In this document: positions 738-24,362 of the stretch, in pieces
How the letters are laid out: the number at the start of each line of letters is the position of its first letter
Numbering within the stretch: position 1 is the stretch's first letter
Translations under genes and position numbers: made by a program
Notes under the pieces: generated by a model
What the model saw: only the letters and a program-made list of their open reading frames with translations
Databases searched by the model: none
What the model was told of the DNA's origin: nothing
Assembly: GCF_053078305.1 (NCBI RefSeq)
Contig: NZ_CP166879.1
Length of the DNA stretch: 64,000 nt
Strand: one strand, 5' to 3'

Positions 738-854
738 TGTTTTTATCTCCTTTCATCAACACTGTAACAATACATATAAACATTAATATTATTAAAGATT
801 CTCACCATCAATATTCGCAGTGAATAATGCAGCATCTCATATTCACATCCTGCA

Positions 855-877
855 GAGAAAACCCCTCCGGAGAGGGG
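855..877 (-). terminator. Orphan terminator-like hairpin with no supported gene upstream
   Basis: CCCCTC (862-867) CGGA GAGGGG (872-877). On the minus strand it is followed by TTTTCTC. There is no ORF of 60 aa or more to its right before 1100. Confidence 0.3.
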
Positions 878-1846
878 TGAGTGTAGCGTAATGGAGTGTT
901 ATGTAGCATGGTGCCGGGTGCCTCCCGGTGAGTTCAGTATCAGCACCTGAACCCGCACAGATAAGGGATGTGACCAAACACCTACGATACTGATATGCCC
1001 CGCCGCTCAGGGGGATTCACCATGCAGTATTTTTTTAACAAATATCCCGTAAGACCGACAATAATCCACTGACTGAACTGTGAGGTATTTAACATTTACA
1101 GATGACTGACTGTGGTGATCAGAGGTATTACAGTCATCCCCCTGTGGCTGCAGTCCGACCATACCATAACCAGCCATACGTCTTACCCGGAAAGCAAATG
1201 GAGCTTTTTGCCATAAACAACACTCTCCGGCTTCAACAAATGGAGCAGAGAATATCTTCAGAAAGTAACAATCAGTTAAAAACAGATCTTTTTTGTATTC
1301 CGTAAATTTTTCAGAAGAGAAAAAGAATTAATTGTCGCCAACGCCTTCAACAGATCGCATCATCAACGAATGATAACAACCTGAAGGATACCGCGATGGA
1401 GTTGACTGTAGACCTGCTAAAAAACCTTAACAACATCAGACAAAATGCTACTATATATGTTCACGCATACCACTATACTGATGATGAAAAATGCGTTATG
1501 GTGCCACGGATATCTTTACCATCACTGAAATTAACTCCGTTGCAATCAGAAATAATTATTCTGACATCTTCTTAATGGAGTCAATTATATAAGGCACGAC
1601 GGGTATGTTCAGGGATATGAAGAAAAAAATGTGGCAACTTTCACAATACAGGAGGAGGGACACCATCGTTTCAAAGCAGACTTATCACAAAATGGGGAAA
1701 GTGATATAGCCAGCAATGTACTAAATCACTGGCTACATCGTATACATAAAACAGATATCATTGTTCTGTCTGTTGTTCTTACAGAATAAATCCTGTTACC
1801 TCCTGAATGTTACAAGGTTTTATATTTATCCTATGAGCATACGTAC

Positions 1847-8848: not shown

Positions 8849-9535
8849 TCATGCCACATTCTGCTCCTGAAGATGACGCAGACGATGGTCCCAGTTTCCC
8901 AGGTAATGCCCGGGCGTCAGCAGTACGCGGCGTCGCTCATTACAGAGCGAGTTACCAATCACCACTTCTCCGGCCACACCACACAACGACAGTTGTATAT
9001 ACGCCATGCCGGCTGCCAGCGGGTCAATATCCGTTGCCGACACCCACATCCTGCGATATGCCGGATACCCCGAACGGTTCAGGGTGTCAGCCATTGCCAG
9101 AATCATACTGCCGGCACCACAGGCAGGTTCACTGAGCGTGATAAAGGGTTTGTTCTCAAACAACGCCTTCACATCTCCCATCTGCATCTGTGCCATCATG
9201 CTGGCAACACTCCAGGGCGTGAAAAACTGACTCCGGTATTTATCCCCCAGTTCCAGTTGCATGAACACACTCCCCAGAAAATCACAGACTCCCTGCTCCA
9301 GTCCCTCAATGACATGAGCAAGCAAATGCGCAATGTGGATAACATCCTGCTTTTCATAACCACTGACGATCCGCAGATACTTCTGTTCCCGGGCCTCACT
9401 GAACTGAAGCCGGTTTTCCAAGGCAATCACACTACAGCTGACAAAGTCTTCAAACACCTTATGACGTTTGTGATAACAGGCTGTCCGGTTAAACAACGAA
9501 ATGAACTCCTTCTGATGGTCAGTCATGGTGGCCAT
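8849..9535 (-). CDS. N6-DNA-methyltransferase-like protein that ends before the catalytic motif IV
   Basis: 228 aa. Contains FFTP, EPACGAGS (motif I) and TDIDP (motif II). The ORF ends after VIGNSL with no (N/D)PP(F/Y/W) motif. GGAG SD. Confidence 0.6.
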   Translation of the reverse strand: MATMTDHQKEFISLFNRTACYHKRHKVFEDFVSCSVIALENRLQFSEAREQKYLRIVSGYEKQDVIHIAHLLAHVIEGLEQGVCDFLGSVFMQLELGDKYRSQFFTPWSVASMMAQMQMGDVKALFENKPFITLSEPACGAGSMILAMADTLNRSGYPAYRRMWVSATDIDPLAAGMAYIQLSLCGVAGEVVIGNSLCNERRRVLLTPGHYLGNWDHRLRHLQEQNVA

Positions 9536-9545
9536 GTTTTCTCCG

Positions 9546-9591
9546 TAAAAACAGGGAACACATGGCCCGGACAGGGGAACAGGTGTTCCCC
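9546..9591 (-). terminator. Terminator with two alternative stems downstream of the 9647-10594 gene
   Basis: GGGAACAC (9554-9561) pairs with GTGTTCCC (9583-9590); alternatively GGGGAACA (9574-9581) pairs with TGTTCCCC (9584-9591). TGTTTTTA follows on the minus strand. Confidence 0.55.
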
Positions 9592-9646
9592 TTCGGGTTG
9601 AAATGTTGATAAAACGGGCATCACGGACATGATACCCGGAGGTTAA

Positions 9647-10594
9647 TTACTGGGCTGAGACCAGAGGAACCGGTAAAGGTGCGGCTTTCGTCTGTTCTTC
9701 AGCGCACTCCTCCACCAGGTACAGTCGGGGCTGTGGAAGTGTTTCCCTGCCCGGCCATTCGGCCTGCAGATCACTGTCCGTATGCTCTCCGCCATCGTAA
9801 CAGTTGTAACCCTGTATACCGTGTACCGGCTCGCTGTACCAGTGTCGGACCTCGCAGTCAAACACCTTCGAGATCTCACCAACCAGTTCGCCTGAAGGCG
9901 GATACCAGGGCGTGTCGATCAGCAGCACCAGACTGCTCATCTCATCACGCGCATGGCGAACATTATTTCCTGACGGCCACTCCACACCGTATATCCGGCT
10001 GTAAAGGCTGGTCGTTGTGGAAATACCCTGCAGCAGTCCACCTGAACCATTCAGCTCTGTAGCCAGACGGGAGGGTATGACCATCAGCATGTCACAGGGC
10101 TGCGCCTGTTCCGGGTAATCCGACAACCAGCTCCAGCAGGCTTCTGCATCAATGTGTTCACTCAGCCCGGCCAGACCAAACCAGTCAGAATACTGACGGC
10201 TCATCAGCGTGGTGATGATCTCCCTGGCATTATCCGGCAGATTACCCCAGCGAACAGCGCCGATACATGACTGGTGATAAAGACGCTCAATGGTCTTTAT
10301 CGTTTCACCATCCAGAACGGCATTTTTTACCAGCAACCCCAGCCACTGCTCAAACGCCTGGTTAGCCGGAGATGACAACCCCGTTCCGTGACGAACCAGC
10401 GCCGGATATGGCGGATACTGCGTCGTCCGTGTGGGTTTTACCAGCCCTGCACAACCGGCCAGAAACAGCTGTATACTCTGCTGTATGGCATGACGGTAGC
10501 GCGGGGTCTCACGCCCTTCAATCCACTGTGTAAGTACATCAAGACAGACTGATTTACCGGTAATTTCAAAACGGTTTTTGCACCATTCAGACAT
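9647..10594 (-). CDS. hypothetical protein (315 aa), conjugative-element type; possibly DUF1281-like
   Basis: AGGAG SD. The N-terminus MSEWCKNRFEITGKS resembles my memory of DUF1281/Api92-like proteins (low certainty). Confidence 0.55.
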   Translation of the reverse strand: MSEWCKNRFEITGKSVCLDVLTQWIEGRETPRYRHAIQQSIQLFLAGCAGLVKPTRTTQYPPYPALVRHGTGLSSPANQAFEQWLGLLVKNAVLDGETIKTIERLYHQSCIGAVRWGNLPDNAREIITTLMSRQYSDWFGLAGLSEHIDAEACWSWLSDYPEQAQPCDMLMVIPSRLATELNGSGGLLQGISTTTSLYSRIYGVEWPSGNNVRHARDEMSSLVLLIDTPWYPPSGELVGEISKVFDCEVRHWYSEPVHGIQGYNCYDGGEHTDSDLQAEWPGRETLPQPRLYLVEECAEEQTKAAPLPVPLVSAQ

Positions 10595-10623
10595 TGTTTA
10601 CGCTCCTCTTTTTTATACAGATG

Positions 10624-10661
10624 TAAAAAGAGGGCATTGTCCCGTGAGGTACAATGCCCTC
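10624..10661 (-). terminator. Rho-independent terminator after the 10678-10992 gene
   Basis: GAGGGCATTGT (10630-10640) pairs with ACAATGCCCTC (10651-10661). TTTTT follows on the minus strand. Confidence 0.6.
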
Positions 10662-10666
10662 ACGGG
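10641..10666. repeat. GC-rich dyad, family 1 (CCCGTGAGG ... CCTCACGGG)
   Basis: 9-bp perfect inverted repeat that overlaps the terminator stem, so the two pairings are mutually exclusive. Lies ~47 nt upstream of start 10594. Confidence 0.8.
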
Positions 10667-10677
10667 AAAACGGGGTA

Positions 10678-10992
10678 TCACGCCCCGTTGTTGCGGATAA
10701 AACCCTGCAGCCAGGCAGTTCGCTCAGGGCCATACCGCCTGTTGACATTCATCAGTTCGTCTGCAGACGGATTGATGAAAAGGTTGTAGTACCAGAGCTC
10801 TTCCTTTAAATCCGCCAGGTTCCCCCTGCCGGTCCTGAGCCACTCCTGTACAACATCCCTGATTTCAGATGTGACATCTCCACGGTAATTTGACGTGATC
10901 GTAACATCTGCCAGTAATTCACTGATATTTCCTGCTATCAGACACGGTTCAGAGATCCCGTTACAGAACCAGACAAGGCATTTACCAGCCAT
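10678..10992 (-). CDS. hypothetical protein (104 aa)
   Basis: GGAGG SD 6 nt upstream. Packed 3 nt from the upstream gene. Confidence 0.55.
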   Translation of the reverse strand: MAGKCLVWFCNGISEPCLIAGNISELLADVTITSNYRGDVTSEIRDVVQEWLRTGRGNLADLKEELWYYNLFINPSADELMNVNRRYGPERTAWLQGFIRNNGA

Positions 10993-10995
10993 ACC

Positions 10996-11433
10996 TTACC
11001 TCCTGTATTTGCTGGTATTTATCCCGATCTCGTTTATGGCTACGGATATGTTGCCCGGAAAACGCGCTGTTTCAATCTTCTCCAGCTCGTTTTTCCGGTA
11101 ACGCTCCACGGTCACACTCAACGGGACGTTCCCCTGTCCGTACTCTTTACGAAGGCGATCAATACACTCCTGTACCAGTTCATCGCTGAAATAACGGGAT
11201 TCAAGCACAGACAGCAGCCCGTCTTTATTCTCAAACCCCTCTGTGACAGAGCGTACTTCGGCCTCCGTTGGACCATCCAGCCAGCTCACCCACACATTGT
11301 TGAAAACTTTCGGGAAAGATGGATCGCATTTCCGCACAGAAAATTTCTGTCCCGGAAATGTATACGCCAGCACATCCCTGATACGGGCCACAACAGCATC
11401 GTCAACATCAACCAGTGCGTTATCGTTCATCAC
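10996..11433 (-). CDS. hypothetical protein (145 aa)
   Basis: AGGAA SD. The composition looks coding. No motif recognised. Confidence 0.55.
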   Translation of the reverse strand: MMNDNALVDVDDAVVARIRDVLAYTFPGQKFSVRKCDPSFPKVFNNVWVSWLDGPTEAEVRSVTEGFENKDGLLSVLESRYFSDELVQECIDRLRKEYGQGNVPLSVTVERYRKNELEKIETARFPGNISVAINEIGINTSKYRR

Positions 11434-11472
11434 TCAGTTCCTCTGTAATCCTGAAATAACAGAGAGCACTGC

Positions 11473-11498
11473 CCCGTGAGGGACAATGCCCTCACGGG
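11473..11498. repeat. GC-rich dyad, family 1 (CCCGTGAGGG-N6-CCCTCACGGG)
   Basis: 10-bp perfect inverted repeat with the same loop ACAATG as the 10641 copy. Lies ~40 nt upstream of start 11433. Confidence 0.8.
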
Positions 11499-11539
11499 AT
11501 AAATGGCGGTCAGGTTATAACCGCCACCGGTAGTAAAAA

Positions 11540-12517
11540 TTATGCTGCGCACTCCTGCGAAGTTCGCCGCGTCAGTAAATACTCTGATGCTTCACGTGCC
11601 TGCCGGCAGGCGCGAAACAGCGCTTTTTTGTCAGACTTCAGAACCTTAAGCCATCCGTCAATATAACTTTCGTGCTGTACGTCACCGGCAATCCCGAGAT
11701 GTGCACACAGAAAAGCACTGCCCATCTCGGCAATCAGCTCTTCAAACGCATATTCCGGGCTTTTGCGACCGGTAAAGGTACTTATCCCCACCCGCCGCAG
11801 GCGCTTTTCATGACCGGTACTGTGTACCAGCTCATGCAGCAGGGTGGCCTGGTAATCAGCCACCTGGTCAAACTGCGACGACAGTGGCATCACGATACGG
11901 TCAAGATCAGGCCGGTAGAATGCCCTGTCCTGTGGAAGTGACGAGACGCTGACGCCGCTGCCATTCAGTACCTGCAGCACCCGCTCACTGAAGGTATCTG
12001 CCGGCAGTGCATCCGCGCTGCCTTCCGCCTTCACCATCAGATGTTCAGGTAAACCGTCACACTGCCCCACATTAAACAGAGGATTCGATTTCAGTACCGG
12101 TACGATTTCCATGAGAGGCTCCCCCTCACTGTCCGTCAGCCGGTTACCGTGTTCATCCACAGCCTGTTTTTTCCAGTCTTTGTAAATCACCGCCAGCGTG
12201 GCCACCTCCCCTTTACGGACGTGGCCACCCAGTTGTTGCGCCTGACGGTACGTCAGCCAGTCATTGCTGACATACCCGGCTTCATCCGCGGCCAGCCACA
12301 GCAACAGGACGTTCACCCCTGTATAAGGCTTCCCGGTCAGGGCATTTGCCGGCATCATCTCCGGAAGCCCCACGCCATTACGCGCAGAGCGCCAGGGACG
12401 TTTCCAGGGTGGCACACCATTTTCAATGGCCGTAACAACCCTGTCGGTCACAAGCTGATACAGGTCACGTTCCGGAGTTTTAATCGCGGTACGTGAAGTA
12501 TGTTTTTTCGTTTTCAT
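11540..12517 (-). CDS. ardC: ArdC-type antirestriction protein (ssDNA-binding N-domain plus zincin metalloprotease domain)
   Basis: VVTAIENGVPPWKRPW (ArdC-N pattern) and LLHELVHSTGH (HEXXH). Start moved to ATG 12517 (MKTKKHTSR...), giving 325 aa. Confidence 0.8.
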   Translation of the reverse strand: MKTKKHTSRTAIKTPERDLYQLVTDRVVTAIENGVPPWKRPWRSARNGVGLPEMMPANALTGKPYTGVNVLLLWLAADEAGYVSNDWLTYRQAQQLGGHVRKGEVATLAVIYKDWKKQAVDEHGNRLTDSEGEPLMEIVPVLKSNPLFNVGQCDGLPEHLMVKAEGSADALPADTFSERVLQVLNGSGVSVSSLPQDRAFYRPDLDRIVMPLSSQFDQVADYQATLLHELVHSTGHEKRLRRVGISTFTGRKSPEYAFEELIAEMGSAFLCAHLGIAGDVQHESYIDGWLKVLKSDKKALFRACRQAREASEYLLTRRTSQECAA

Positions 12518-12609
12518 AAGAGCATGCCCCCTGAAAAAGATGCACGCTCCCTGTACGGTGAGAGTGCACCGTACAGTTAAATTAATAACGAAAATCAGAC
12601 TGGCCAGAA

Positions 12610-12993
12610 TTACCACAACGCCAGCATCACCAGTGAACGACGCTCAAAATCAAACGTCTTCAGCGTATTGCTGACCCACGCTTTTACGTCATCCACGTCA
12701 TACCAGTAATCACCGGCATAATCTTCCCCCCGTAAACACGAGCCTGTGACATAAGGAAACAGCCTGTGGCAGTTCCCCGGTGTCAGCATACTGAGGTCGC
12801 GCAATAATGCAGCCAGTGAACTGCGGGTTACAGGGAAAGCATGCTGCTCATCTGAAGCACCGGTATGTTCACGAAACCATGTCAGAAGAGGTTTCACCTT
12901 ACGGAAAGCCCCCACCTCCTGATGTTCCTGTGTTCCCACAACGGCACCACTGTGATGGTTATCACGAGCCAGAAAGTAAATATCGAGTCCCAT
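12610..12993 (-). CDS. hypothetical protein (127 aa)
   Basis: Start at ATG 12993 (MGLDIYFLARD...), preceded by AGGAG. Confidence 0.5.
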   Translation of the reverse strand: MGLDIYFLARDNHHSGAVVGTQEHQEVGAFRKVKPLLTWFREHTGASDEQHAFPVTRSSLAALLRDLSMLTPGNCHRLFPYVTGSCLRGEDYAGDYWYDVDDVKAWVSNTLKTFDFERRSLVMLALW

Positions 12994-13108
12994 AACAATT
13001 CTCCTGAATAAAGCCGGGACTCTCCCCACAGGGATATGTCCCTGCCGGGTGATATAATGACGGAATACGTGATGACGTTATTCCGGATAAAGAAACTACG
13101 GCGTTCTG

Positions 13109-13738
13109 TTACCGCCCACCGGCAAGAGCCCGCAGCCAGTAAAGCTGATATTCGGCCTCTTCCAGTGCTGCCCAGTCATCCGGGGATAACTGTCGCCCCT
13201 GACCGGACAAAAACTGCAGCAGTAAGCTGTCAAACACATCTCCCCTTACCAGGGTGGTTAATACAGACTCCGGAGCAGAAAAATTCTCATGCCCCAGGTA
13301 CCGTTTTATCCATTTCAGCGGCAGCGACCAGCTGGCACCACCGACAGTGGAATGAATACGAAAACAGTCCGGACACAGATTGTGCAACAGCACAAAGACT
13401 GTACGGGCAAAGAAATCTCCCGGCTGACGTCCGAAATTCAGCTCATTAAGAGCCAGAATATTCCGGCTGTGCTCCCGCTCAATAGTGACATTCACCGACC
13501 ACAGCCCGTCGGCAGACCGGCAGTAAAACGCCAGCGTGTCCGTTACCGGAAACAACTCTGACGCCCGGGTCAGGGAGCCGAAATACGCATTCTGCGGCCG
13601 TAACGCCTCCGGCAACTGCCAGAAGGTTTCAGTGGCAGCCAGAACAAAAGCATGCCACTGCTTTTCCGGTATTGTGGAAACCTGCTCAAGGGTATATACC
13701 ACCGGCTCACGGGCCGGACGTGAAGATAACTCAGACAT
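13109..13738 (-). CDS. hypothetical protein (209 aa)
   Basis: Start at ATG 13738 (MSELSSRPAREP...), preceded by GAGGA. Confidence 0.5.
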   Translation of the reverse strand: MSELSSRPAREPVVYTLEQVSTIPEKQWHAFVLAATETFWQLPEALRPQNAYFGSLTRASELFPVTDTLAFYCRSADGLWSVNVTIEREHSRNILALNELNFGRQPGDFFARTVFVLLHNLCPDCFRIHSTVGGASWSLPLKWIKRYLGHENFSAPESVLTTLVRGDVFDSLLLQFLSGQGRQLSPDDWAALEEAEYQLYWLRALAGGR

Positions 13739-13780
13739 GGAACATTCCTCATGGTTAAAACGAAACAACGGGGAATGTCT

Positions 13781-13807
13781 CCCGGACGGAGAACTCCCCC
13801 GTCAGGG
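13781..13807. repeat. GC-rich dyad, family 2 (CCCGGACGG ... CCGTCAGGG)
   Basis: 8 of 9 positions pair. Lies upstream of start 13738. Confidence 0.6.
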
Positions 13808-13819
13808 TCAGGTCATGAA

Positions 13820-14197
13820 TTACATCATGTCGTGCCGGGCAAAATATTCATCCGCTCCGGCCACCATCTTTCCGGTACTGATACTGTCAGCCCAGATTTC
13901 ATGATTAATTTCACGCCCCAGAGCCATCAGACTGTCGAGTGCCTGACGGGCCTGAATTCCCGGTGCGGAAATCTCCTCCTGCTCCAGGTCATACAACAGC
14001 CAGCCCAGCGCCTCGCCGGTATCCCACAGATACACGTATACCAGTGAAGGCTCCGTCTCATCATCCGGCTCCGGGGTAATACCCAGCCGTTGCCAGGCTC
14101 GTAACCGCATCAGCTCGCCTTCCATCTGACTGATATGAGCCAGCAGAGCAGACTGCGTCTGAAGCGCTGAATAATGAGCAATTAAAGGTGAATACAT
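13820..14197 (-). CDS. hypothetical acidic protein (125 aa)
   Basis: GGAGG SD. Rich in D and E. Confidence 0.5.
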   Translation of the reverse strand: MYSPLIAHYSALQTQSALLAHISQMEGELMRLRAWQRLGITPEPDDETEPSLVYVYLWDTGEALGWLLYDLEQEEISAPGIQARQALDSLMALGREINHEIWADSISTGKMVAGADEYFARHDMM

Positions 14198-14228
14198 GAT
14201 GACCTCCGTCTCTTAAAGGAAGTCCTGT

Positions 14229-14256
14229 CCCTGACGGAACAAAACTCCCGTCAGGG
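14229..14256. repeat. GC-rich dyad, family 2 (CCCTGACGG-N10-CCGTCAGGG)
   Basis: 9-bp perfect inverted repeat with loop AACAAAACTC, followed by AAAACACC. Lies 32 nt upstream of start 14197. Confidence 0.8.
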
Positions 14257-14509
14257 AAAACACCGGCGCAAAAACACGGTGCAGTAAGTAAAAGAAAAAC
14301 CGTTACGGGAGCAAAACAGCCATCATTGCAAAATGGCAGTTGCATCGCTCACGATTTGACATCCTTCCTGTGACTGACTGGCATCCTGCCCGTCAGTCTG
14401 CGTCGGAAAATTCAATACAGGCCTGCTTCAGGAGCCCGGCTATACGTTGATTCAGACATTCCGTCCAGCCATCGTTCCATCCACGCTCCCATGGATTGCA
14501 GACATCCTC

Positions 14510-14872
14510 CTATGGATTGCAGACATCGTTACAGCCATTCTTCCATGTCTTCCATGCCTCCATCTCCATGACAGCCCCCAGCCTGTGGCCTTTCACACGT
14601 ATATGCCACAGAAACGGCCGGAAAAGTCCTGATTTCAGTTGGTCACCACCGCTTTTGTAGCCCAGATGACATGCAACACTTTCAGTATATTCAAATGCAT
14701 CATTCTGCATTCCAGCCGCCTTAGCCAGCGAGCTGTACGCATCACGAAGTATCGTCATACCTTCCAGTTGATACTCACACCACGCACGGACAGCCGACAC
14801 TGGTGCGATTACCCGAAGAATGGTGCAGGGACGCCATACAACAATGTAAAGGAGTATTAACAGACTATGCAT
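14510..14872 (-). CDS. hypothetical protein ending at an amber codon inside a 21-bp tandem duplication; the frame stays open to 14393
   Basis: TAG at 14510-14512 corresponds to TGG in the neighbouring repeat copy. See findings. Confidence 0.4.
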   Translation of the reverse strand: MHSLLILLYIVVWRPCTILRVIAPVSAVRAWCEYQLEGMTILRDAYSSLAKAAGMQNDAFEYTESVACHLGYKSGGDQLKSGLFRPFLWHIRVKGHRLGAVMEMEAWKTWKNGCNDVCNP

Positions 14873-14889
14873 GTGTTCACCTCAGATAC

Positions 14890-14933
14890 AAAAAATAACG
14901 GGAACACACCTGCCTTGCGGGAAGCGTGTTCCC
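14890..14933 (-). terminator. Rho-independent terminator after the 14955-15347 gene
   Basis: GGGAACAC (14900-14907) pairs with GTGTTCCC (14926-14933). GTTATTTTTT follows on the minus strand. Confidence 0.6.
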
Positions 14934-14954
14934 GACAGGGTAATAAATGATAAA

Positions 14955-15347
14955 TCAGCAGGGCTGTGCGACGATTCCATCACCCTGCAGACCAAACCGG
15001 TAACGCAGGGTGGTCAGTTGCTCCGCCATACGGCAGGCAGCATGCCATGTCCTGCGACGGGATATCCGTCCGGTAAACCGGTTCAGATAAATGACCTCAC
15101 GCGGTAACGGCTGATACCATCCTGTGTACTCGTTGCGATACATTCCCTGCCGGTAATACAGGCAGGGTGTCCAGACACCGCCACGACGGAACATACAGAC
15201 CCGCACGCTCAGATTGCCGGCCGGATTAGTGTACCAGCGACTGTAATATGACAGGTTATTGCGGGAAAAAAACACCCGCAACTGAGCCGTCATTCGCCGG
15301 AAAAAAGAAGAGATGCCCGGTTCAGGGCACAAAATAAACGTTGACAT
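14955..15347 (-). CDS. hypothetical protein (130 aa)
   Basis: Start moved to ATG 15347 (MSTFILCPEP...), preceded by AGGAG. The longer ORF-track version would run into the structured repeat. Confidence 0.5.
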   Translation of the reverse strand: MSTFILCPEPGISSFFRRMTAQLRVFFSRNNLSYYSRWYTNPAGNLSVRVCMFRRGGVWTPCLYYRQGMYRNEYTGWYQPLPREVIYLNRFTGRISRRRTWHAACRMAEQLTTLRYRFGLQGDGIVAQPC

Positions 15348-15378
15348 AAAGACTCCTGTAAAAAAACGGGAGCCTTCG

Positions 15379-15406
15379 CCCCGACGGACAAAAACTCCCG
15401 TCAGGG
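15379..15406. repeat. GC-rich dyad, family 2 (CCCCGACGG-N10-CCGTCAGGG)
   Basis: 8 of 9 positions pair. Same loop and same trailing AAAACACC as the 14229 copy. Lies 32 nt upstream of start 15347. Confidence 0.7.
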
Positions 15407-15442
15407 TTAAAACACCACCAGTACAGCATGGTGTTGCTGTCA

Positions 15443-15777
15443 GAAAAAGCCCGTTAATAAAGGGCGCAGTTATAAAGAAACCTTCATCGTCATGACTGAC
15501 GATATCTGCTCTCAAAGGTGGGCAGATTTACCACCACCAGAAACATCCTGGCTGCACATCCCCTTTCAGGTTACGGGGGTGTTGATCACCCGAAGGCGTT
15601 CCTCTCAGATCAACGGAACATTGGTGCCCACCGAAGCGGGATGTGGTCACCCGAAGGCGCTCCTCTCAGACCACTTATGGAGCATTGGTGGTCGCCGAAG
15701 CGACATGTAGCCACCCGAAGGCGCTCCTCTCAGGCCACTTGTGGAGCATTGGTGGTCGCCGGAGCGACATATAAGCC
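15443..15777 (-). ncRNA. STAXI-like structured element, locus A: three tandem ~64-nt pseudoknot modules plus a ~135-nt 3' part
   Basis: On the minus strand there are six UNCG tetraloop hairpins, two covarying stems per module, G.U pairs that exist only in the minus-strand reading, and a terminal GCCC/GGGC hairpin followed by U5. See findings. Confidence 0.55.
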
Positions 15778-15782
15778 TGTAT

Positions 15783-15811
15783 ATTTTTAAATCACAAAAG
15801 ATGAATGTCAA
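15783..15811 (-). promoter_or_regulatory. Candidate sigma70 promoter for locus A
   Basis: Minus strand: TTGACA (15811-15806), 17-nt spacer, AAAAAT (15788-15783). The predicted start falls just before the first hairpin. Confidence 0.4.
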
Positions 15812-15812
15812 G

Positions 15813-16136
15813 TTATTCAACATCAATCCAAAGAGGAATATTATGTATTCCCTTAACGGGTTCTCCCAGAGGAAAAACACAGGTCCCTTTAATCAGTATT
15901 TTTCTTCCCGACCATCTGACATCACAGTTAAAATCTCCCACCACATCAAAATAATCCGCAATGGATTCATAGATGTCCCATTCATCATAGATATCCCATT
16001 TATCTGCTGTTCCTTCACATTCAAACTCGGCCTGATATCCGGAATCAACATATCGCGCCAGATAGTGTGACCACAAAGGCGAATTTTTTGTAATCTCTTT
16101 TACAGAGATTATTTTCAGCAAAATAGTACAATCCAT
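15813..16136 (-). CDS. hypothetical acidic protein (107 aa) downstream of the recombinase
   Basis: ORF only. D/E/W-rich. No clear SD. Confidence 0.4.
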   Translation of the reverse strand: MDCTILLKIISVKEITKNSPLWSHYLARYVDSGYQAEFECEGTADKWDIYDEWDIYESIADYFDVVGDFNCDVRWSGRKILIKGTCVFPLGEPVKGIHNIPLWIDVE

Positions 16137-16168
16137 AATATTTACCCGTACGAAATCGCCATGAGTTA

Positions 16169-17071
16169 TTACTCATAGCCTAACAACTGACAATAAACCT
16201 GTTCAATATATCGTCCTCTGCCATCACCATGACCAAGATCAATTGATGTCAGTGCAAGTGCCTCCTTATAACTGTAACCGTTCATAATATGATATTTCAT
16301 GGCACTTGCAGCGTAACTGTACCGAAAACTGTGTGCAGTCTCATCTCTGCCTTTCAGTTCTCCATAACGACGTAATGTATTAAGATAATAATCCATTGCC
16401 GACTTAAGATTATCTCTGTCTATAAGACGTCCATTATGTTCACTGGCATATTTGAGTGCATAATTAACAGCATCAAGAACGTTATCCCGGTCAACAACCG
16501 TTGTCATTCTTTCCCGTCCCCCTTTCGTACCAAAAATCACTCTTATTTTTTCATCTCCCCGTTGTAACGCTTTTTTCCAGGTTCGTAATGATTTGGCCGA
16601 CTGGATAGCTTCTTCATTTCTCAGACCGAGGTAACGTGACAGTTTAACAACAGCAGCCACCCCTTTATCTTTTGCTTCCACACGCTGAAGAATCTCCCGA
16701 AAACGCTCATCCGTGATTAATTTTTTTGTTCCCTTACGACTGGAGCCGGAAATGCCTAACGCTTTATTGCTGAGACGAGGATGTTCGGGATCAGCCATCT
16801 TATATTTACCTGCCTGACGTAACATAACCCGTATTGCAGACATTTCATTTTCCCTTGTTCGCCCAGAAACATTATTCCGGCTTCTCATATATAGCTCAAT
16901 ATGCCGGACTTTTACCTGCGCGGCAGAACTGATCTGTACATTCATTTTTGCCAGACTTTCAGCAAAGCGGTGCATGATCCTGGTGTAATCACTCAGCTTC
17001 TTGAAGCTGCCTTTGTCTTTTCGAATGTGAGCAACCAGATCCTGTTTCAGTAATTTTTCACGTCTGGACAT
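16169..17071 (-). CDS. Tyrosine recombinase (XerC/D-like phage-integrase family)
   Basis: YLGLRNEEA (Arg I), AHSFRYSYA (HxxR) and LGHGDGRGRY (catalytic Tyr). Start set at ATG 17071, preceded by GGAG 6 nt upstream. The ORF-track start at 17086 is a GTG. Confidence 0.85.
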   Translation of the reverse strand: MSRREKLLKQDLVAHIRKDKGSFKKLSDYTRIMHRFAESLAKMNVQISSAAQVKVRHIELYMRSRNNVSGRTRENEMSAIRVMLRQAGKYKMADPEHPRLSNKALGISGSSRKGTKKLITDERFREILQRVEAKDKGVAAVVKLSRYLGLRNEEAIQSAKSLRTWKKALQRGDEKIRVIFGTKGGRERMTTVVDRDNVLDAVNYALKYASEHNGRLIDRDNLKSAMDYYLNTLRRYGELKGRDETAHSFRYSYAASAMKYHIMNGYSYKEALALTSIDLGHGDGRGRYIEQVYCQLLGYE

Positions 17072-17120
17072 CAACTTCTCCTGCACATAATAATTTTTAC
17101 CTTAAACAGCTGTACGTTCG

Positions 17121-17171
17121 GCAGATGAGTTTTTCTGTTGTGCCGTGAACACAACAGAAAAACTCATCTGC
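17121..17171. repeat. Perfect 22-bp inverted repeat (7-nt spacer), 50 nt upstream of the recombinase start
   Basis: GCAGATGAGTTTTTCTGTTGTG (17121-17142) pairs with CACAACAGAAAAACTCATCTGC (17150-17171). No T-run on either side. Confidence 0.9.
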
Positions 17172-17782
17172 ATTTCTCCCTGACGACACGGTTAAACGTT
17201 GCGATCCTTCGGGTAGTGACTGCCTGTGCGCCAGGGTAGCGCAGATTGTTTAGGTATTGAGGGGTAACAAATCGGTGTTGCACACCGACTGCAGCATTTG
17301 CTGTACCTGTCTCCAGGTCGCCCCCGACACCACCTCTAATAAGTGGTATCGCCGATTCGGCATCTCACTACATAAAACTCCTTAAAAAAACAATTGATTC
17401 TGCAAAAAACCATTTATGGACGTTATTCACAAAATCGTCCGTAAATTTGCAGAAGAGGTTGAAAAAACACTCTCACGCCGGGTCACTTCTTCAAATGTTA
17501 AAAAACATCACGTGAAACGGCAGTTCGTGCGGGTTCGTTAAGCAGACGCGCGTGCGTCACTTTGTCATCGTGACACGCTGACGAAAGTGACGCCGCGCAG
17601 CTTCAGACGCCAGATACACGCGTAAGCGACCAAATTTCAAATGGTCTTATACAGCGCGCACAGTCGCAGGAAGTGCTGGCAAACAAATGAAAAGAATAAA
17701 AGAAGTCAATACCGCCATTACGCAGTAAGAACATTCCGGCATCACCGGATGGATAAGGATCACACAACCACTGCTGTGTATT

Positions 17783-18050
17783 GCCCGTAATAAAGGGCGC
17801 GGTTAAAAGAAACCTTCATCGTCATGACTGACGATATCTGCTCTCAAAGGTGGGCAGATTTACCACCACCAGAAACATCCTGGCTGCACATCCCCTTTCA
17901 GGTTACGGGGGTGTTGATCACCCGAAGGCGTTCCTCTCAGATCAACGGAACATTGGTGCCCACCGAAGCGGGATGTGGTCACCCGAAGGCGCTCCTCTCA
18001 GACCACTTATGGAGCATTGGTGGTCGCCGAAACGACAGATAATGTATTCT
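17783..18050 (-). ncRNA. STAXI-like structured element, locus B: two tandem modules plus the same 3' part
   Basis: Identical to locus A over 15477-15699 / 17809-18031, at an offset of 2332. Confidence 0.5.
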
Positions 18051-18051
18051 G

Positions 18052-18080
18052 AGCATATCAGAGCGCATAAAAGGCGTCAA
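18052..18080 (-). promoter_or_regulatory. Candidate sigma70 promoter for locus B
   Basis: Minus strand: TTGACG (18080-18075), 17-nt spacer, TATGCT (18057-18052). It lies in sequence not shared with locus A. Confidence 0.4.
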
Positions 18081-18385
18081 TTATCCATGCTCCCTCACGA
18101 AACAGAAGCTGAACTCTTAACACCTGCTATCGGAACTCACTGAATAAACAACTAAAAAGGACATTGTGAAAATTAACATCAACAGTATGTAAAGTGATTT
18201 GTTTTGTCTTAAATGGGTGAATGTAAAAAAATATTCTATACAATCCACACATCCTTGTATCATATATCAAGTAAACATCCACAGAGATAACAGCTTATTT
18301 CAAATAAGCAGATTCTGTTTGATACTTCAGAAAAATAGTATATGCTCCTGATTTACTGATGTTATAAGTTATACAGGATAGTTAA

Positions 18386-19342
18386 ATGTGTGATTTTATA
18401 AAATCATGTTATGCAGCACCAAGAATTAACAAAATGGCTGATTTTTTCTCATCAACAGCATCTGGAGTAAAACATAAACCTTTGAAGCATGTAAAAATTG
18501 ATAACAGGCTTTTCCCATCTCCTGAGTATATAATTTTTTCTGACTATCTTACGAAAAACAGTGGTCCATTTGTTAACCACTACTTTTGCAGTATTCCATA
18601 CAGCAAAGAAGAAGAATGCAGGCTGGGTGTGACTATTATGAAATATGCAAGCCATCGAAATAAGCCATTGAGCTTATGGTGTCTTGGAATGGCAGAAGGA
18701 GCCATGGCCAGAACAATTTCTCAACTATCAAAAGGACAGGTTTTATCATTAACAACCAGCCCAACAAAAGAAAATGAACCTGTATTCTTTAGTCATGGTT
18801 CTCATATTCACTCTTACTTTATTTGCTCCCCATTCTTTCTTGTTCATGAAGAAATAAAAAATAACAACCCTGAACTATTTCCTCATGGTTTTGATATTAT
18901 AATAGAAGATACAACGTTTCAGATGTATTCTCCCGACAGAGAACAACAAATAAAACATGTAAAAAAAACATTAAAATACGATGGTATTTTCATTTTCACA
19001 GAGAAATTTTCCACCTCCACAAAAGAATATCAGATTAGAGAATATCAAAAAGATTTTTCATTTAAACAAAGATATTTTTCACAAGATGAAATAGACGCAA
19101 AAAAAGAAAACGTTCTTAATATCATGAATTTAAATGAAGTAACTCTCGAAAGAATGATTACAGCCATTAAGTCACATTTTAAATATTATTCTGTCTACTG
19201 GAATAGTGGTAATTTCTATTCAATAGCTGCCAGCAATTCGCAAAAAAACATTTCTGACTTTATAATGTTGCTTCCTGAGGCAGCCATACCTATGGAGTAT
19301 GTTTATTTTAAGGTTCCAACCAGAATAACAGGAGTTATATAA
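18386..19342 (+). CDS. Class I SAM-dependent methyltransferase-like protein (318 aa)
   Basis: Rossmann-like pattern LWCLGMAEGAMAR ... FDIIIEDTTFQMY ... LKYDGIFIFTE. AT-rich. The call is weak. Confidence 0.5.
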   Translation: MCDFIKSCYAAPRINKMADFFSSTASGVKHKPLKHVKIDNRLFPSPEYIIFSDYLTKNSGPFVNHYFCSIPYSKEEECRLGVTIMKYASHRNKPLSLWCLGMAEGAMARTISQLSKGQVLSLTTSPTKENEPVFFSHGSHIHSYFICSPFFLVHEEIKNNNPELFPHGFDIIIEDTTFQMYSPDREQQIKHVKKTLKYDGIFIFTEKFSTSTKEYQIREYQKDFSFKQRYFSQDEIDAKKENVLNIMNLNEVTLERMITAIKSHFKYYSVYWNSGNFYSIAASNSQKNISDFIMLLPEAAIPMEYVYFKVPTRITGVI

Positions 19343-19346
19343 TCCC

Positions 19347-19922
19347 ATGGACTTCTCAACATTAATAACATTCTCTATTATAACCTTATCACAAACAGTA
19401 TCGATTGGTCCGGGGGTGGCATTAATCATATCTGAAAGTCTGACATATGGTGCAAAAAAAGCAATAACGACAAGTATATATATAAGATTTGGCGAAATTG
19501 TTGTCATGCTAGTCACACTATTTTCTATAGCACTGGCAATCAATTTAGAAAAACATCTTGACACAATAAAAACTTGTGGTGGTGGATATCTGATTTTTCT
19601 TGGTATTACTCGTCTCATCAAGAGAAAAGGATCTAAAGGAAACAAAGCAAATATCCCTTTTTTAATACCGATGCTCAATCCAAAGGCCTTTTTGTTCTTT
19701 GCTGCATTTATGCCATCATTCATAAAAAACAACAGTAACTTTAATACTGACTTTTTGTTACTTTGTATCATTTTTATAATTGTGTCATTACTCACTGACT
19801 TAATATATATATGTATATGTTTAACTATAAGAGGGCGTATAAATTCATCATTTTCAAAATATGTTAATTTTATCAGCTCTTTATTTATACTTTTAACTGG
19901 CGCATATCTGGTTTTTTTATGA
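19347..19922 (+). CDS. LysE/RhtB-family amino-acid exporter (191 aa)
   Basis: Multi-pass membrane protein. N-terminal pattern ...LSQTVSIGPGVALIISESLTYG and the size fit the LysE family. Starts 4 nt after the upstream gene. Confidence 0.7.
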   Translation: MDFSTLITFSIITLSQTVSIGPGVALIISESLTYGAKKAITTSIYIRFGEIVVMLVTLFSIALAINLEKHLDTIKTCGGGYLIFLGITRLIKRKGSKGNKANIPFLIPMLNPKAFLFFAAFMPSFIKNNSNFNTDFLLLCIIFIIVSLLTDLIYICICLTIRGRINSSFSKYVNFISSLFILLTGAYLVFL

Positions 19923-20070
19923 TATGCCGTCAGGGTGTGCTTCCTTACATATCACGCCCTCTTCCAGACGTCGCTGGTCGTCGCCCTCTGCGTCCCTTAC
20001 TTTCAGCCCCTCTGAGCATAATCGCCCCTCCAGAGGAGCCCATCACAACGACAATGCCAGCGGGTTAATT

Positions 20071-23724: not shown

Positions 23725-24362
23725 TACCAGTATAGTAATCAGTAACGTCAGCTTCCAGGTTGTAATGCTTTTAATTTTGATAAAAATAAACTTAATAAAT
23801 TACATTTGTTAAATATTGATAATTTTAATTTGGTTTTATTACTCCAGTTATACTCACACTCTATCTTTACACAATTCATCACCATTACACCTCCATAGCC
23901 TGTTGATTTAAAAGATTTAATTTCCTGTGAAACAATCAGGCCTGTATGAACCTGATTATACCACAGAATCTTTTAAGTTATTTAAATTTAACTCTCGGGC
24001 TTTTCTGTCAGTAAAATCAGAAAAATTGCAGGATTTCGTTTTTTTTGCTGCGAAGTGAAATGTATCTCATTTTTACTGCCTTCGCCAGTGCGTCAGGCAA
24101 TGGCAGGTAGTGTACCTGCATTCTGCTGTAACGCGTAATGTCGGGTAGTTTACTTAAACTTAATATGTTTTATGTTTGCATTATTATAAATCACTTTATT
24201 GCCTTTTGTCTGCTTTTTAATGGTTCCCGTTTTGTTCACTTCTGGCTTTATAAAAAATGGATGCTGAAGAAATGAAGGTAGTCCACCTTACATAATATTC
24301 ATGCATGATTTTTATGCTATTCCGACTGAGTGGAAGAAAATAAAGGAGAAAAGAGGGTATAT

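What the first reader, a model, noticed from the sequence alone, without database searches (positions are those of the whole stretch)
15449..18037. Two ~255-bp direct copies of the structured element bracket a 2.3-kb recombinase module: a nested integrative module or a recombination-prone duplication
Seen in the sequence: 15449-15705 and 17783-18037 are direct repeats. They are exact over 15477-15699 / 17809-18031, with small indels only at the left edge. Copy A carries one extra module (15706-15775). Each copy has its own promoter-like sequence, in non-homologous DNA. Between the copies lie only a 107-aa acidic ORF, a XerC/D-like tyrosine recombinase, and ~700 bp without any ORF of 60 aa or more. 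The interior is visibly more AT-rich than the DNA to the left. Inference: either the recombinase module integrated site-specifically into a pre-existing structured element, so the repeats are attL/attR-like, or the element was duplicated. In either case, RecA-dependent or recombinase-dependent deletion of 2332 bp is expected.
Basis: partly seen in the sequence, partly recalled or inferred. Interest (0 to 1): 0.55.

Follow-up and report, generated by a model that had tools for sequence, protein, structure and literature searches.

The report
Paired STAXI RNA repeats flanking recombinase

Summary
15474-15705 and 17806-18037 are an exact 232-nt direct repeat, 2332 bp apart, and copy A has one extra 64-nt module. 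Both copies are minus-strand STAXI RNA arrays (Rfam RF01728). Between them lie an EFASI RNA (RF02957), a tyrosine recombinase of Pfam family Integrase_1, and a 107-aa acidic ORF.

This is not a recent insertion. The order STAXI - EFASI - int - STAXI recurs in 67 of 78 related loci across Enterobacterales. It sits at a fixed place in MPF_G-type integrative conjugative elements (ICEs), between TraG and the ArdC/DUF1281/methylase cluster. Each copy has its own conserved, non-homologous sigma-70 promoter ending about 13-15 nt upstream. The int-distal copy is usually followed by a strong terminator. The two copies are normally 70-90% alike but evolve in concert; this window is the extreme case, best explained by a recent conversion tract.

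The predicted 2332-bp deletion exists in E. coli Z1323MEC0001: one hybrid copy and no integrase. None of 70 genomes with diverged repeats shows it. A tandem duplication and 64-nt module-number changes also occur.

Verdict: recombination-prone paralogous RNA leaders. The attL/attR reading is not supported.

The parts
15476..15775 (-). STAXI array, copy A (int-distal, 'D' copy). It heads the hyp...ArdC operon. 15474-15705 is the exact repeat and 15706-15775 is the extra 5' module.
   Evidence: Rfam RF01728 scores 75.7 bits against a gathering score of 40.5 at 15476-15641. nhmmer hits lie at 15478-15635, 15641-15704 and 15704-15768. 15705-17673 is orthologous to NGF1 L002 9417-11376 at 88.7%.
17806..18037 (-). 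STAXI array, copy B (int-proximal, 'U' copy). It lies at the 5' end of the EFASI-integrase unit and is the exact repeat partner of 15474-15705.
   Evidence: Rfam RF01728 scores 91.0 bits at 17872-18037. nhmmer hits lie at 17810-17967 and 17972-18036.
15449..15473 (.). Imperfect 3'-side extension of the repeat. Its partner is 17783-17805.
   Evidence: family D5 gives 90% identity with a 1-nt offset. The alignment is shown.
18052..18080 (-). Sigma-70-type promoter in front of copy B (TTGACG, 17 nt, TG-TATGCT).
   Evidence: Found. The motif TTGNNN-N16-18-TANNNT is present upstream of 64 of 68 non-redundant U copies, against 9.6% of shuffles. It ends 13-15 nt before the array.
15783..15811 (-). 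Sigma-70-type promoter in front of copy A (TTGACA, 17 nt, AAAAAT). It is not homologous to the copy-B promoter.
   Evidence: Found. The motif is present upstream of 40 of 54 non-redundant D copies.
15365..15402 (-). Strong intrinsic terminator between copy A and the first downstream gene (14955-15347).
   Evidence: One search shows 17 pairs followed by a T-run. RNAfold gives -24.8 kcal/mol. A terminator of -12 kcal/mol or stronger lies 40-100 nt after the D copy in 43 of 60 loci, but after the U copy in only 5 of 69.
15813..16136 (-). ORF107, a small acidic protein (19 D+E, 10 K+R). It is clade-specific.
   Evidence: There is no Pfam or NCBIfam hit. tblastn finds it in only 2 of 80 loci.
16169..17071 (-). 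Tyrosine recombinase, Pfam Integrase_1 + Phage_int_SAM_2 (300 aa; the ORF can extend to the GTG at 17086).
   Evidence: PF12835 E=4.6e-55 and PF12834 E=5.1e-22. R151, K183, H247, R250, H281 and Y288/Y293 are invariant in 17 homologues. The AlphaFold2 model has pLDDT 88.7. Foldseek matches XerA, XerH, lambda Int and Cre at probability 1.0.
17121..17171 (.). Perfect 22-nt inverted repeat with a 7-nt centre, 50 nt upstream of the integrase start. It is a candidate RNA hairpin, operator or recombinase core site.
   Evidence: I1. It is the only copy in the window. The same position in other clades carries 16-22-nt inverted repeats, perfect in most, with different arm sequences and a conserved centre TCACNCNG.
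17214..17371 (-). EFASI RNA.
   Evidence: Rfam RF02957 scores 53.2 bits against a gathering score of 51.2. nhmmer scores 94 at 17218-17364, and EFASI is found in 79 of the 80 fetched integrase loci.
17476..17644 (-). Conserved non-coding block between STAXI-B and EFASI. Its core is the inverted repeat GCGTCACTT(G/T)...(C/A)AAGTGACGC at 17554-17593.
   Evidence: The conservation profile gives 0.6-0.83 per 20 columns. Nine stem pairs are invariant and the tenth covaries G-C/T-A in 5 of 14 sequences. No Rfam match at E<=1. No conserved ORF.
11540..15347 (-). Downstream operon headed by copy A: five small hypothetical genes, then ArdC. It continues to DUF1281 (9647-10594) and an N6 DNA methylase (8849-9535).
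   Evidence: RefSeq annotation of the 99.9%-identical locus L001. Synteny in related loci was checked by tblastn.

Best explanation
The two repeats are paralogous STAXI RNA arrays. They belong to the conserved backbone of an MPF_G (PAPI-1 / ICEclc / SGI-4-type) ICE. Each array starts a few bases after its own sigma-70 promoter and forms the 5' end of a transcription unit on the minus strand.

Unit 1 runs promoter - STAXI-B - conserved inverted-repeat block - EFASI - long hairpin - Integrase_1 recombinase - ORF107. Unit 2 runs promoter - STAXI-A - intrinsic terminator - small genes - ArdC - DUF1281 - DNA methylase.

The duplication is ancient, but the bodies of the two arrays are repeatedly homogenised by gene conversion. 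In this E. coli sub-lineage a tract of about 232-257 nt was converted recently. That left the original 5' module of copy A (15706-15775) untouched.

Because the copies are now long, identical direct repeats, they are substrates for homology-dependent unequal recombination. This recombination deletes the 2332-bp recombinase module, changes the number of 64-nt modules and, in another lineage, has duplicated the module.

Shown here: the identity of the elements, the conserved anatomy, the concerted evolution and the natural deletion. Inferred: that the arrays act as RNA leaders or small RNAs, and that the rearrangements are RecA-type rather than integrase-catalysed.
For: Both copies score well above the STAXI gathering score, and EFASI lies between copy B and the integrase.

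The same order and strand are found in NGF1 and in 9 of 11 diverse genera by Rfam. By nhmmer, 78 loci have the STAXI-EFASI-int order and 67 of them also have a downstream STAXI.

The module sits at a fixed place: TIGR03755 and TraG upstream, ArdC, DUF1281 and methylase downstream. It is also present in the SGI-4 circle.

Position-specific conserved promoters occur in 64/68 and 40/54 loci against 9.6% of shuffles. A strong terminator follows the D copy in 43/60 loci and the U copy in only 5/69.

The copies evolve in concert. Within-locus similarity is about 0.79, while orthologous copies of distant loci score 0.54-0.58. In close relatives, orthologous copies (0.87) are more alike than the two copies within a locus (0.73).

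Orthology with NGF1 resumes exactly at 15705, the end of the exact tract.

The precise deletion is present in Z1323MEC0001, alongside 13 two-copy genomes of the same sub-lineage. Among 70 genomes whose repeats are only about 93% identical, none has it.

Copy A measures 227, 291 or 355 nt in close relatives. A tandem duplication of the module occurs in Photorhabdus.

Published RT-qPCR detected STAXI and EFASI sequences in cDNA from outer-membrane vesicles of one E. coli strain (PMC12370729).
Against: No transcript ends were mapped for this locus, so the promoter and terminator assignments are consensus matches supported only by conservation.

The identical tract hides the crossover point, so the deletion does not tell RecA-type from integrase-mediated recombination. 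The contrast of 1 in 14 against 0 in 70 rests on a single event.

Concerted evolution could also reflect selection for a shared lineage-specific partner rather than conversion.

About 11 loci lack a detectable downstream copy. Some are truncated contigs; others have IS or cargo insertions.

The function of STAXI RNA itself remains unknown.
Confidence: 0.75

Rival explanations
1. The STAXI arrays are the recombination sites of the Integrase_1 recombinase. On this reading the 2.3-kb unit is an excisable, re-insertable cassette with structured attL/attR-like ends, somewhat like integron attC sites. The deletion, the duplication and the homogenisation would all be products of site-specific recombination.
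For: STAXI, EFASI and this integrase family are tightly linked. The two flanking copies evolve in concert. Both the deletion and the tandem duplication have their boundaries in STAXI arrays. The recombinase keeps a complete catalytic set. The discoverers of STAXI raised a single-stranded-DNA role (PMC2864571).
Against: The module keeps one position and orientation in the ICE backbone across genera. Each copy has its own conserved promoter at a fixed distance, and the D copy has a terminator; this is the anatomy of RNA genes or leaders. Most lineages have copies only 70-90% identical. None of 70 genomes with diverged repeats has an empty site. Copy A kept an orthologous 5' module. UUCG loops favour RNA. 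A better-shaped core-site candidate, a perfect 22-7-22 palindrome, lies next to the gene.
Confidence: 0.12
2. The single-copy form seen in Z1323MEC0001 is ancestral for this sub-lineage. On this reading the recombinase module entered it as a circle, by one crossover within STAXI (Campbell-type), and that crossover created the two identical copies.
For: A single crossover of a circle carrying one STAXI copy would give exactly two identical direct repeats and a 2332-bp unit. The single-copy genome exists. A tandem-duplicated form exists elsewhere.
Against: The two-copy state is the rule in 67 of 78 loci, including the nearest relatives NGF1 and Salmonella. Thirteen of 14 genomes of the sub-lineage have two copies. 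The single-copy genome has no integrase anywhere, whereas every other backbone examined has one. The left flank and the interior show similar levels of identity to NGF1 (94% and 89%), which fits vertical co-descent.
Confidence: 0.06
3. The similarity of the two copies within each element is kept by selection: both RNAs must fit the same lineage-specific partner. On this reading no DNA exchange is involved, and the identity in this window is the limit of that constraint.
For: Homology between the copies stops at the element boundaries in almost all lineages and does not extend into the promoters. Within-locus similarity exceeds orthologous similarity at long distances.
Against: 232 consecutive identical bases, including loop and linker positions, alongside 72-77% identity to the orthologous copies of a 90%-related ICE, is not what purifying selection produces. 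The tract excludes one functional module and runs about 25 nt past the STAXI model's end. That is tract-like behaviour, not element-like.
Confidence: 0.07

Closest known systems
STAXI RNA motif (Rfam RF01728; Weinberg et al. 2010, PMC2864571) and EFASI RNA motif (RF02957)
   Same: Both copies are full-length matches above the gathering score. They consist of tandem ~64-nt pseudoknot modules, occur in Enterobacterales, and lie next to an integrase and antirestriction genes. EFASI sits a few hundred bases downstream of a STAXI and upstream of the integrase, as the Rfam description states. STAXI is already known to be enriched in MPF_G ICEs (PMC5587801).
   Different: The papers I could read do not mention several features seen here: a second STAXI downstream of the integrase that brackets it; position-specific promoters; the terminator after the distal copy; concerted evolution of the pair; or repeat-mediated loss of the integrase. 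Copy A has 4-5 modules rather than the usual 2-3.
Dispersed Frpo/ssi repeats in the leading regions of F and ColIb-P9 plasmids (from my own knowledge, not tested here)
   Same: These too are several direct copies of a structured non-coding element. Each sits at the head of an operon of early-entry genes (antirestriction, ssb, psiB), all in one orientation, in the segment next to the transfer genes.
   Different: Frpo is a long single hairpin that mimics a promoter in single-stranded DNA. STAXI is a tandem pseudoknot with UUCG loops, predicted on the sense strand and preceded by an ordinary double-stranded sigma-70 promoter. There is no sequence relationship. Which strand of this ICE is transferred is unknown.
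RecA-dependent deletion, duplication and gene conversion between direct repeats (the general mechanism of concerted evolution, as in rRNA operons and IS copies)
   Same: Identical direct repeats of about 230-260 bp lie 2.3 kb apart. The products seen are a precise deletion with one hybrid copy, the reciprocal-type tandem duplication, module-number changes and a bounded conversion tract.
   Different: The repeats here are functional RNA elements adjacent to a site-specific recombinase, so an enzyme-mediated route cannot be excluded from sequence alone.
Simple tyrosine recombinases without an arm-binding domain (XerC/D, XerA, XerH, Cre)
   Same: The protein has a two-domain fold of about 300 aa, a complete R-K-H-R-H-Y set, and Foldseek probability 1.0 to XerA, XerH, lambda Int core and Cre.
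   Different: It shows no detectable sequence similarity to any solved recombinase and only 11-16% identity in structural alignments. It belongs to a separate Pfam family (PF12835). Its substrate is unknown, and it is not the ICE's integration enzyme as far as position suggests.

Membership tests
STAXI RNA (RF01728) | Covariance-model score at or above the curated gathering score (40.5 bits) | tested here: met
   Scores are 91.0 bits (17872-18037) and 75.7 bits (15476-15641), both on the minus strand and both full-length against the model.
STAXI RNA (RF01728) | Pseudoknot module repeated in tandem at least two, usually three, times | tested here: met
   Units with a 64-nt period are 86% alike (D2). 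nhmmer finds 2 hits in copy B and 3 in copy A. The pseudoknot pairing itself was not re-derived here.
STAXI RNA (RF01728) | Lies near genes for integrase, antirestriction, Ssb or topoisomerase, in Enterobacterales | tested here: met
   An integrase lies between the copies, and ArdC lies 3 kb downstream of copy A. The host is E. coli.
EFASI RNA (RF02957) | Score at or above the gathering score (51.2 bits), located downstream of a STAXI and upstream of an integrase gene | tested here: met
   The score of 53.2 bits is only marginally above threshold. Relatives score 55-86.5 bits at the same position.
Tyrosine recombinase superfamily | Catalytic R-K-H-R-(H/W)-Y residues and the two-domain recombinase fold | tested here: met
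   PF12835 and PF12834 both match. R151, K183, H247, R250, H281 and Y288/Y293 are invariant; their assignment to catalytic roles follows motif context and is an inference. Foldseek gives probability 1.0 to XerA, XerH, lambda Int and Cre, with TM-scores of 0.4-0.56.
XerC/XerD family proper | Recognisable sequence homology to XerC/D | tested here: not met
   phmmer and a 17-sequence profile found no recombinase in PDB sequences. There is no NCBIfam hit.
XerC/XerD family proper | Action at a dif-like 11-6-11 site | not tested
   No search for a dif-like site was run. The only nearby palindrome found in passing is the 22-7-22 inverted repeat at 17121-17171, which is not of that form.
Nested integrative module with attL/attR | Related elements show an empty site with a single copy and joined flanks | tested here: met
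   One genome, Z1323MEC0001, has this form. None of 70 NGF1-type genomes does.
Nested integrative module with attL/attR | The module is variably present, or sits at varying positions, among related host elements | tested here: not met
   The module keeps the same position, order and strand in 67 of 78 loci from many genera.
Nested integrative module with attL/attR | The repeats were generated by the insertion, so each is a hybrid of element and target | tested here: not met
   Both copies carry their own conserved promoters. The 5' module of copy A is orthologous to the same-position copy in NGF1.
Nested integrative module with attL/attR | A circular excision product, and dependence on the recombinase | not testable with these tools
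   This needs outward-facing PCR or long reads, plus integrase and recA mutants.
Frpo/ssi-type single-stranded-DNA promoters | A hairpin in the transferred strand that mimics a -35/-10 promoter | not tested
   The resemblance is positional only. The STAXI structure is on the sense strand and has a conventional upstream promoter.

The most novel reading that the evidence does not exclude
The STAXI arrays, perhaps folded as single strands, are the substrates of the Integrase_1 recombinase. The STAXI-EFASI-int unit would then be a self-excising, self-homogenising cassette inside the ICE, a new kind of structured recombination site. Recombinase action would explain the concerted evolution, the deletion in Z1323MEC0001 and the tandem duplication in Photorhabdus.
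Probability: 0.1. Interest if true: 0.75.

Novelty: new member of a known kind. Interest (0 to 1): 0.35.

Why it matters
STAXI, EFASI and the Integrase_1 recombinase are widespread in enterobacterial ICEs that carry virulence and metal-resistance cargo (a subAB island here, and SGI-4). None of the three has a known function.

This work gives them a defined anatomy: two promoter-proximal STAXI leaders, one followed by a terminator in front of the antirestriction operon, plus two further conserved inverted repeats. It also provides a natural integrase-less deletion strain. Together these make the function testable.

In practical terms, the identical repeats make this locus structurally unstable and liable to break short-read assemblies.

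Tried and rejected
- **Plasmid DNA search.** It found nothing useful for the locus.
- **Spacer between STAXI-B and EFASI.** I looked for a conserved small ORF and found none.
- **Permissive Rfam search of 17080-17830.** It returned only EFASI and spurious microRNA matches to the palindrome.
- **Partner for the 22-nt palindrome arm.** The window holds no second copy.
- **PDB sequence searches with the integrase.** The single sequence and the profile both gave no recombinase hit. Only fold comparison worked.
- **Copy B arriving with the AT-rich cargo to its right.** Rejected: relatives with different right-hand DNA carry the same copy B up to 18085.
- **The conserved inverted repeat at 17554-17593 as the ICE's oriT.** The literature I could reach did not place oriT for this family, so this stays a speculation.
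- **Homology tracts running into the flanks.** I checked whether within-locus homology extends into flanking DNA, which would prove conversion. It does not, except for up to about 50 nt at the 3' side, so the test was uninformative.
Full report
**1. The observation**

The repeat is real. The repeat finder gives an exact 232-nt direct repeat, 15474-15705 = 17806-18037, with a start-to-start spacing of 2332. A further 21 nt on the left are 90% identical with a 1-nt offset. Copy A carries one more unit of a 64-nt tandem module (families D2 and D5).

Between the copies lie three things:
- a 107-aa acidic ORF (15813-16136, minus strand; 19 D+E against 10 K+R);
- a 300-305-aa recombinase ORF (16169-17071/17086, minus strand);
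- 696 bp without an ORF of 60 aa or more.

GC content is 0.427 inside the bracket, 0.525 to the left and 0.337 to the right.

**2. What the elements are**

A scan of the whole window against Rfam finds two STAXI RNAs (RF01728): 91.0 and 75.7 bits against a gathering score of 40.5. Both are on the minus strand and coincide with the two repeats. One EFASI RNA (RF02957, 53.2 against 51.2 bits) lies at 17214-17371, also on the minus strand, between copy B and the recombinase.

The recombinase matches Pfam Integrase_1 (PF12835, E=4.6e-55) and Phage_int_SAM_2. Seventeen homologues down to 50% identity keep R151, K183, H247, R250, H281 and Y288/Y293.
- An AlphaFold2 model (pLDDT 88.7) matches XerA, XerH, lambda Int and Cre at Foldseek probability 1.0, but with only 11-16% identity.
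- Sequence searches of the PDB find nothing.

So it has the tyrosine-recombinase fold but is not a XerC/D family member.

Rfam's own description says EFASI is typically found a few hundred bases downstream of a STAXI and upstream of an integrase gene (quoted in PMC12370729). STAXI was named for its neighbours: Ssb, topoisomerase, antirestriction and XerDC integrase (PMC2864571). It is known to be enriched in MPF_G ICEs (PMC5587801).

**3. Context**

A 99.9%-identical locus in E. coli FHI_NMBU_10 shows the surroundings. On the same strand as the integrase, the backbone runs traD ... TIGR037xx genes ... TraG, then the module, then five small genes, ArdC, LPD29, DUF1281 and an N6 DNA methylase. 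After that comes cargo, including subAB.

In the window itself, TraG and TIGR03755/6 lie at 55-59 kb. About 37 kb of cargo therefore sits to the right of copy B.

**4. Is the bracket an insertion?**

No. The related ICE of strain NGF1, about 90% identical, has the same STAXI - ORF - int - EFASI - STAXI order. Its copies are about 93% identical over 175 nt.

I fetched 80 loci encoding relatives of the integrase, one per species, mostly 50-56% protein identity, from Serratia, Yersinia, Proteus, Photorhabdus, Pantoea, Pectobacterium and others.
- By Rfam, 9 of 11 sampled loci have STAXI, EFASI, int and STAXI on one strand.
- By nhmmer, 78 loci have the STAXI-EFASI-int order, and 67 of them also have a second STAXI 0.1-3 kb downstream of the integrase.
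- tblastn shows the flanks are syntenic: TIGR03755 and TraG upstream, ArdC (55 loci), DUF1281 and the methylase downstream.
- Exceptions carry IS elements or cargo at that point.
- The excised SGI-4 circle of Salmonella has the same arrangement.

**5. Anatomy around each copy**

The DNA just upstream of the two copies is not homologous between them, but each is conserved across the family. The motif TTGNNN-N16-18-TANNNT lies upstream of 64 of 68 non-redundant int-proximal copies and 40 of 54 int-distal copies, against 9.6% of shuffled controls. It typically ends 13-15 nt before the array. In the window these promoters are at 18080-18052 and 15811-15783.

A strong intrinsic terminator (-12 kcal/mol or stronger) follows the distal copy within 40-100 nt in 43 of 60 loci; in the window it is at 15402-15365, -24.8 kcal/mol. 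The proximal copy has one in only 5 of 69 loci.

This is the anatomy of two promoter-proximal RNA leaders or small RNAs. One heads the EFASI-integrase unit; the other stands in front of the ArdC operon.

**6. Why the copies are identical here**

Within-locus identity ranges from about 0.65 to 0.98. Three comparisons bear on the cause:
- For loci with distant integrases, orthologous copies score 0.54-0.58.
- The two copies of one locus score about 0.79.
- For very close loci, orthologues (0.87) are more alike than the two copies within a locus (0.73).

This is the signature of occasional homogenisation on top of an old duplication. The conserved, position-specific promoters show that the duplication is old.

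In the window, orthology with NGF1 runs from 15705 to 17673 at 88.7%. It starts exactly where the exact tract ends, and the tract itself is only 72-77% like either NGF1 copy. The extra module 15706-15775 is therefore the surviving part of the original copy A, and the rest was overwritten by a conversion tract of about 232-257 nt. All 13 two-copy genomes of this sub-lineage share the homogenised state.

**7. Are the repeats recombination-prone?**

Yes.
- E. coli Z1323MEC0001 matches both ends of the 4.5-kb query across only 2167 bp. Its annotation runs from the small genes straight into the methyltransferase-like gene, LysE and ireA.
- The alignment shows one STAXI copy with copy A's left edge and copy B's right edge. 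That genome has no other match to the query, so the integrase module is gone, not moved.
- A synthetic empty-site query for the NGF1 type, whose repeats are diverged, found no deleted form in 70 genomes.
- Copy A is 227, 291 or 355 nt long in close relatives, in steps of one 64-nt module, while copy B stays at 227.
- Photorhabdus antumapuensis carries STAXI-EFASI-int-STAXI-EFASI-int remnant-STAXI, the reciprocal-type duplication.

All of this fits homology-dependent unequal exchange. Because the tract is identical, the crossover point cannot be seen, so integrase-mediated exchange is not excluded.

**8. Other conserved features inside the bracket**

A perfect 22-nt inverted repeat with a 7-nt centre lies at 17121-17171, 50 nt before the integrase start. 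At the same position other clades have 16-22-nt inverted repeats, perfect in most, with quite different arm sequences but a conserved centre, TCACNCNG. There is no second copy in the window. It could be an RNA hairpin, an operator or the recombinase's core site.

A 170-nt block (17476-17644) is as conserved as EFASI. Its core is GCGTCACTT(G/T)...(C/A)AAGTGACGC at 17554-17593: nine invariant pairs, with a tenth that covaries. It has no Rfam match and no conserved ORF.

**9. Verdict**

Of the two interpretations offered, 'recombination-prone duplication with an expected 2332-bp deletion' is supported, and a natural example exists. 'A recombinase module that integrated into a pre-existing element, leaving attL/attR-like repeats' is not supported, because the bracket is an ancient, fixed and separately promoted part of the ICE backbone.

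The elements belong to known families whose association is already recorded, so novelty is modest. What appears to be new is the systematic two-copy bracket, its concerted evolution, the promoter and terminator anatomy, and the two unannotated inverted repeats. The functions of STAXI, EFASI and this recombinase remain open.

Noticed in passing
window 17476-17644 (core 17554-17593), minus strand: A conserved non-coding block lies between STAXI-B and EFASI. It holds a sequence-invariant 9-10-bp inverted repeat, GCGTCACTT(G/T)...(C/A)AAGTGACGC, around a variable ~20-nt centre. It is not in Rfam. It could be a protein-binding site; an oriT-like role is pure speculation.
   Followed up: partly
window 17121-17171: A perfect 22-nt inverted repeat with a 7-nt centre lies just upstream of the integrase start. 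Other clades keep a 16-22-nt inverted repeat (perfect in most) at the same position, with different arms and a conserved centre TCACNCNG. It is a candidate recombinase core site, operator or RNase III-type hairpin.
   Followed up: partly
L087 979-1205; L088 2179-2533; window 15478-15768: In near-identical E. coli ICEs, the STAXI array at the copy-A position is 227, 355 or 291 nt long, differing by whole 64-nt modules. Copy B is always 227 nt.
   Followed up: yes
L021 3730-8269 (Photorhabdus antumapuensis): The module is tandemly duplicated: three STAXI arrays, two EFASI, one intact integrase and one internally deleted integrase copy (93-95% identical segments).
   Followed up: partly
L086 6001-6486 (E. 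coli O157:H7 ter/ure island); about 576 E. coli records: A 78%-identical remnant of the EFASI plus conserved-block region (window 17180-17665) sits next to IS66 elements in the tellurite/urease island. No integrase lies beside it, so it looks like a decayed ICE fragment.
   Followed up: partly
window 852-1054, minus strand: A full-length STnc100 sRNA match (RF02076, 138.7 bits) lies far from the finding. Two weaker STnc100 matches lie upstream of the module in Trabulsiella (L026).
   Followed up: no
window 18038-20070 and on to about 55000: Very AT-rich cargo (GC 0.337: a methyltransferase-like ORF and a LysE translocator) begins about 50 nt beyond the copy-B promoter. Together with ireA, a 1454-aa ORF (24330-28694) at the position of the 'hemagglutinin' gene annotated in L085, and other genes, about 37 kb separates the module from TraG (55243-56748). 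In NGF1 that distance is under 2 kb, so this looks like a cargo hotspot.
   Followed up: partly
protein table: Many short-read (Logan/ENA) contigs encoding this integrase are only 2.0-2.4 kb long. That is the size expected if near-identical flanking STAXI copies break assemblies at both ends.
   Followed up: no
window 15492-15710, 15518-15790, 17824-18042, 17850-18143 (+) and 14955-15515 (-): The mechanical ORFs that run through the repeats occur as duplicated pairs. They lie on the strand opposite the RNA or overrun the annotated 130-aa gene (14955-15347). They are almost certainly not genes.
   Followed up: partly
L083 (E. coli EM22-18-53) 9001-13114: The left flank is 94% identical to the window, but the integrase allele is too diverged for megablast, and an IS2 sits between the flank and the integrase. 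Backbone and module are mosaic, with the break near the STAXI copy.
   Followed up: partly
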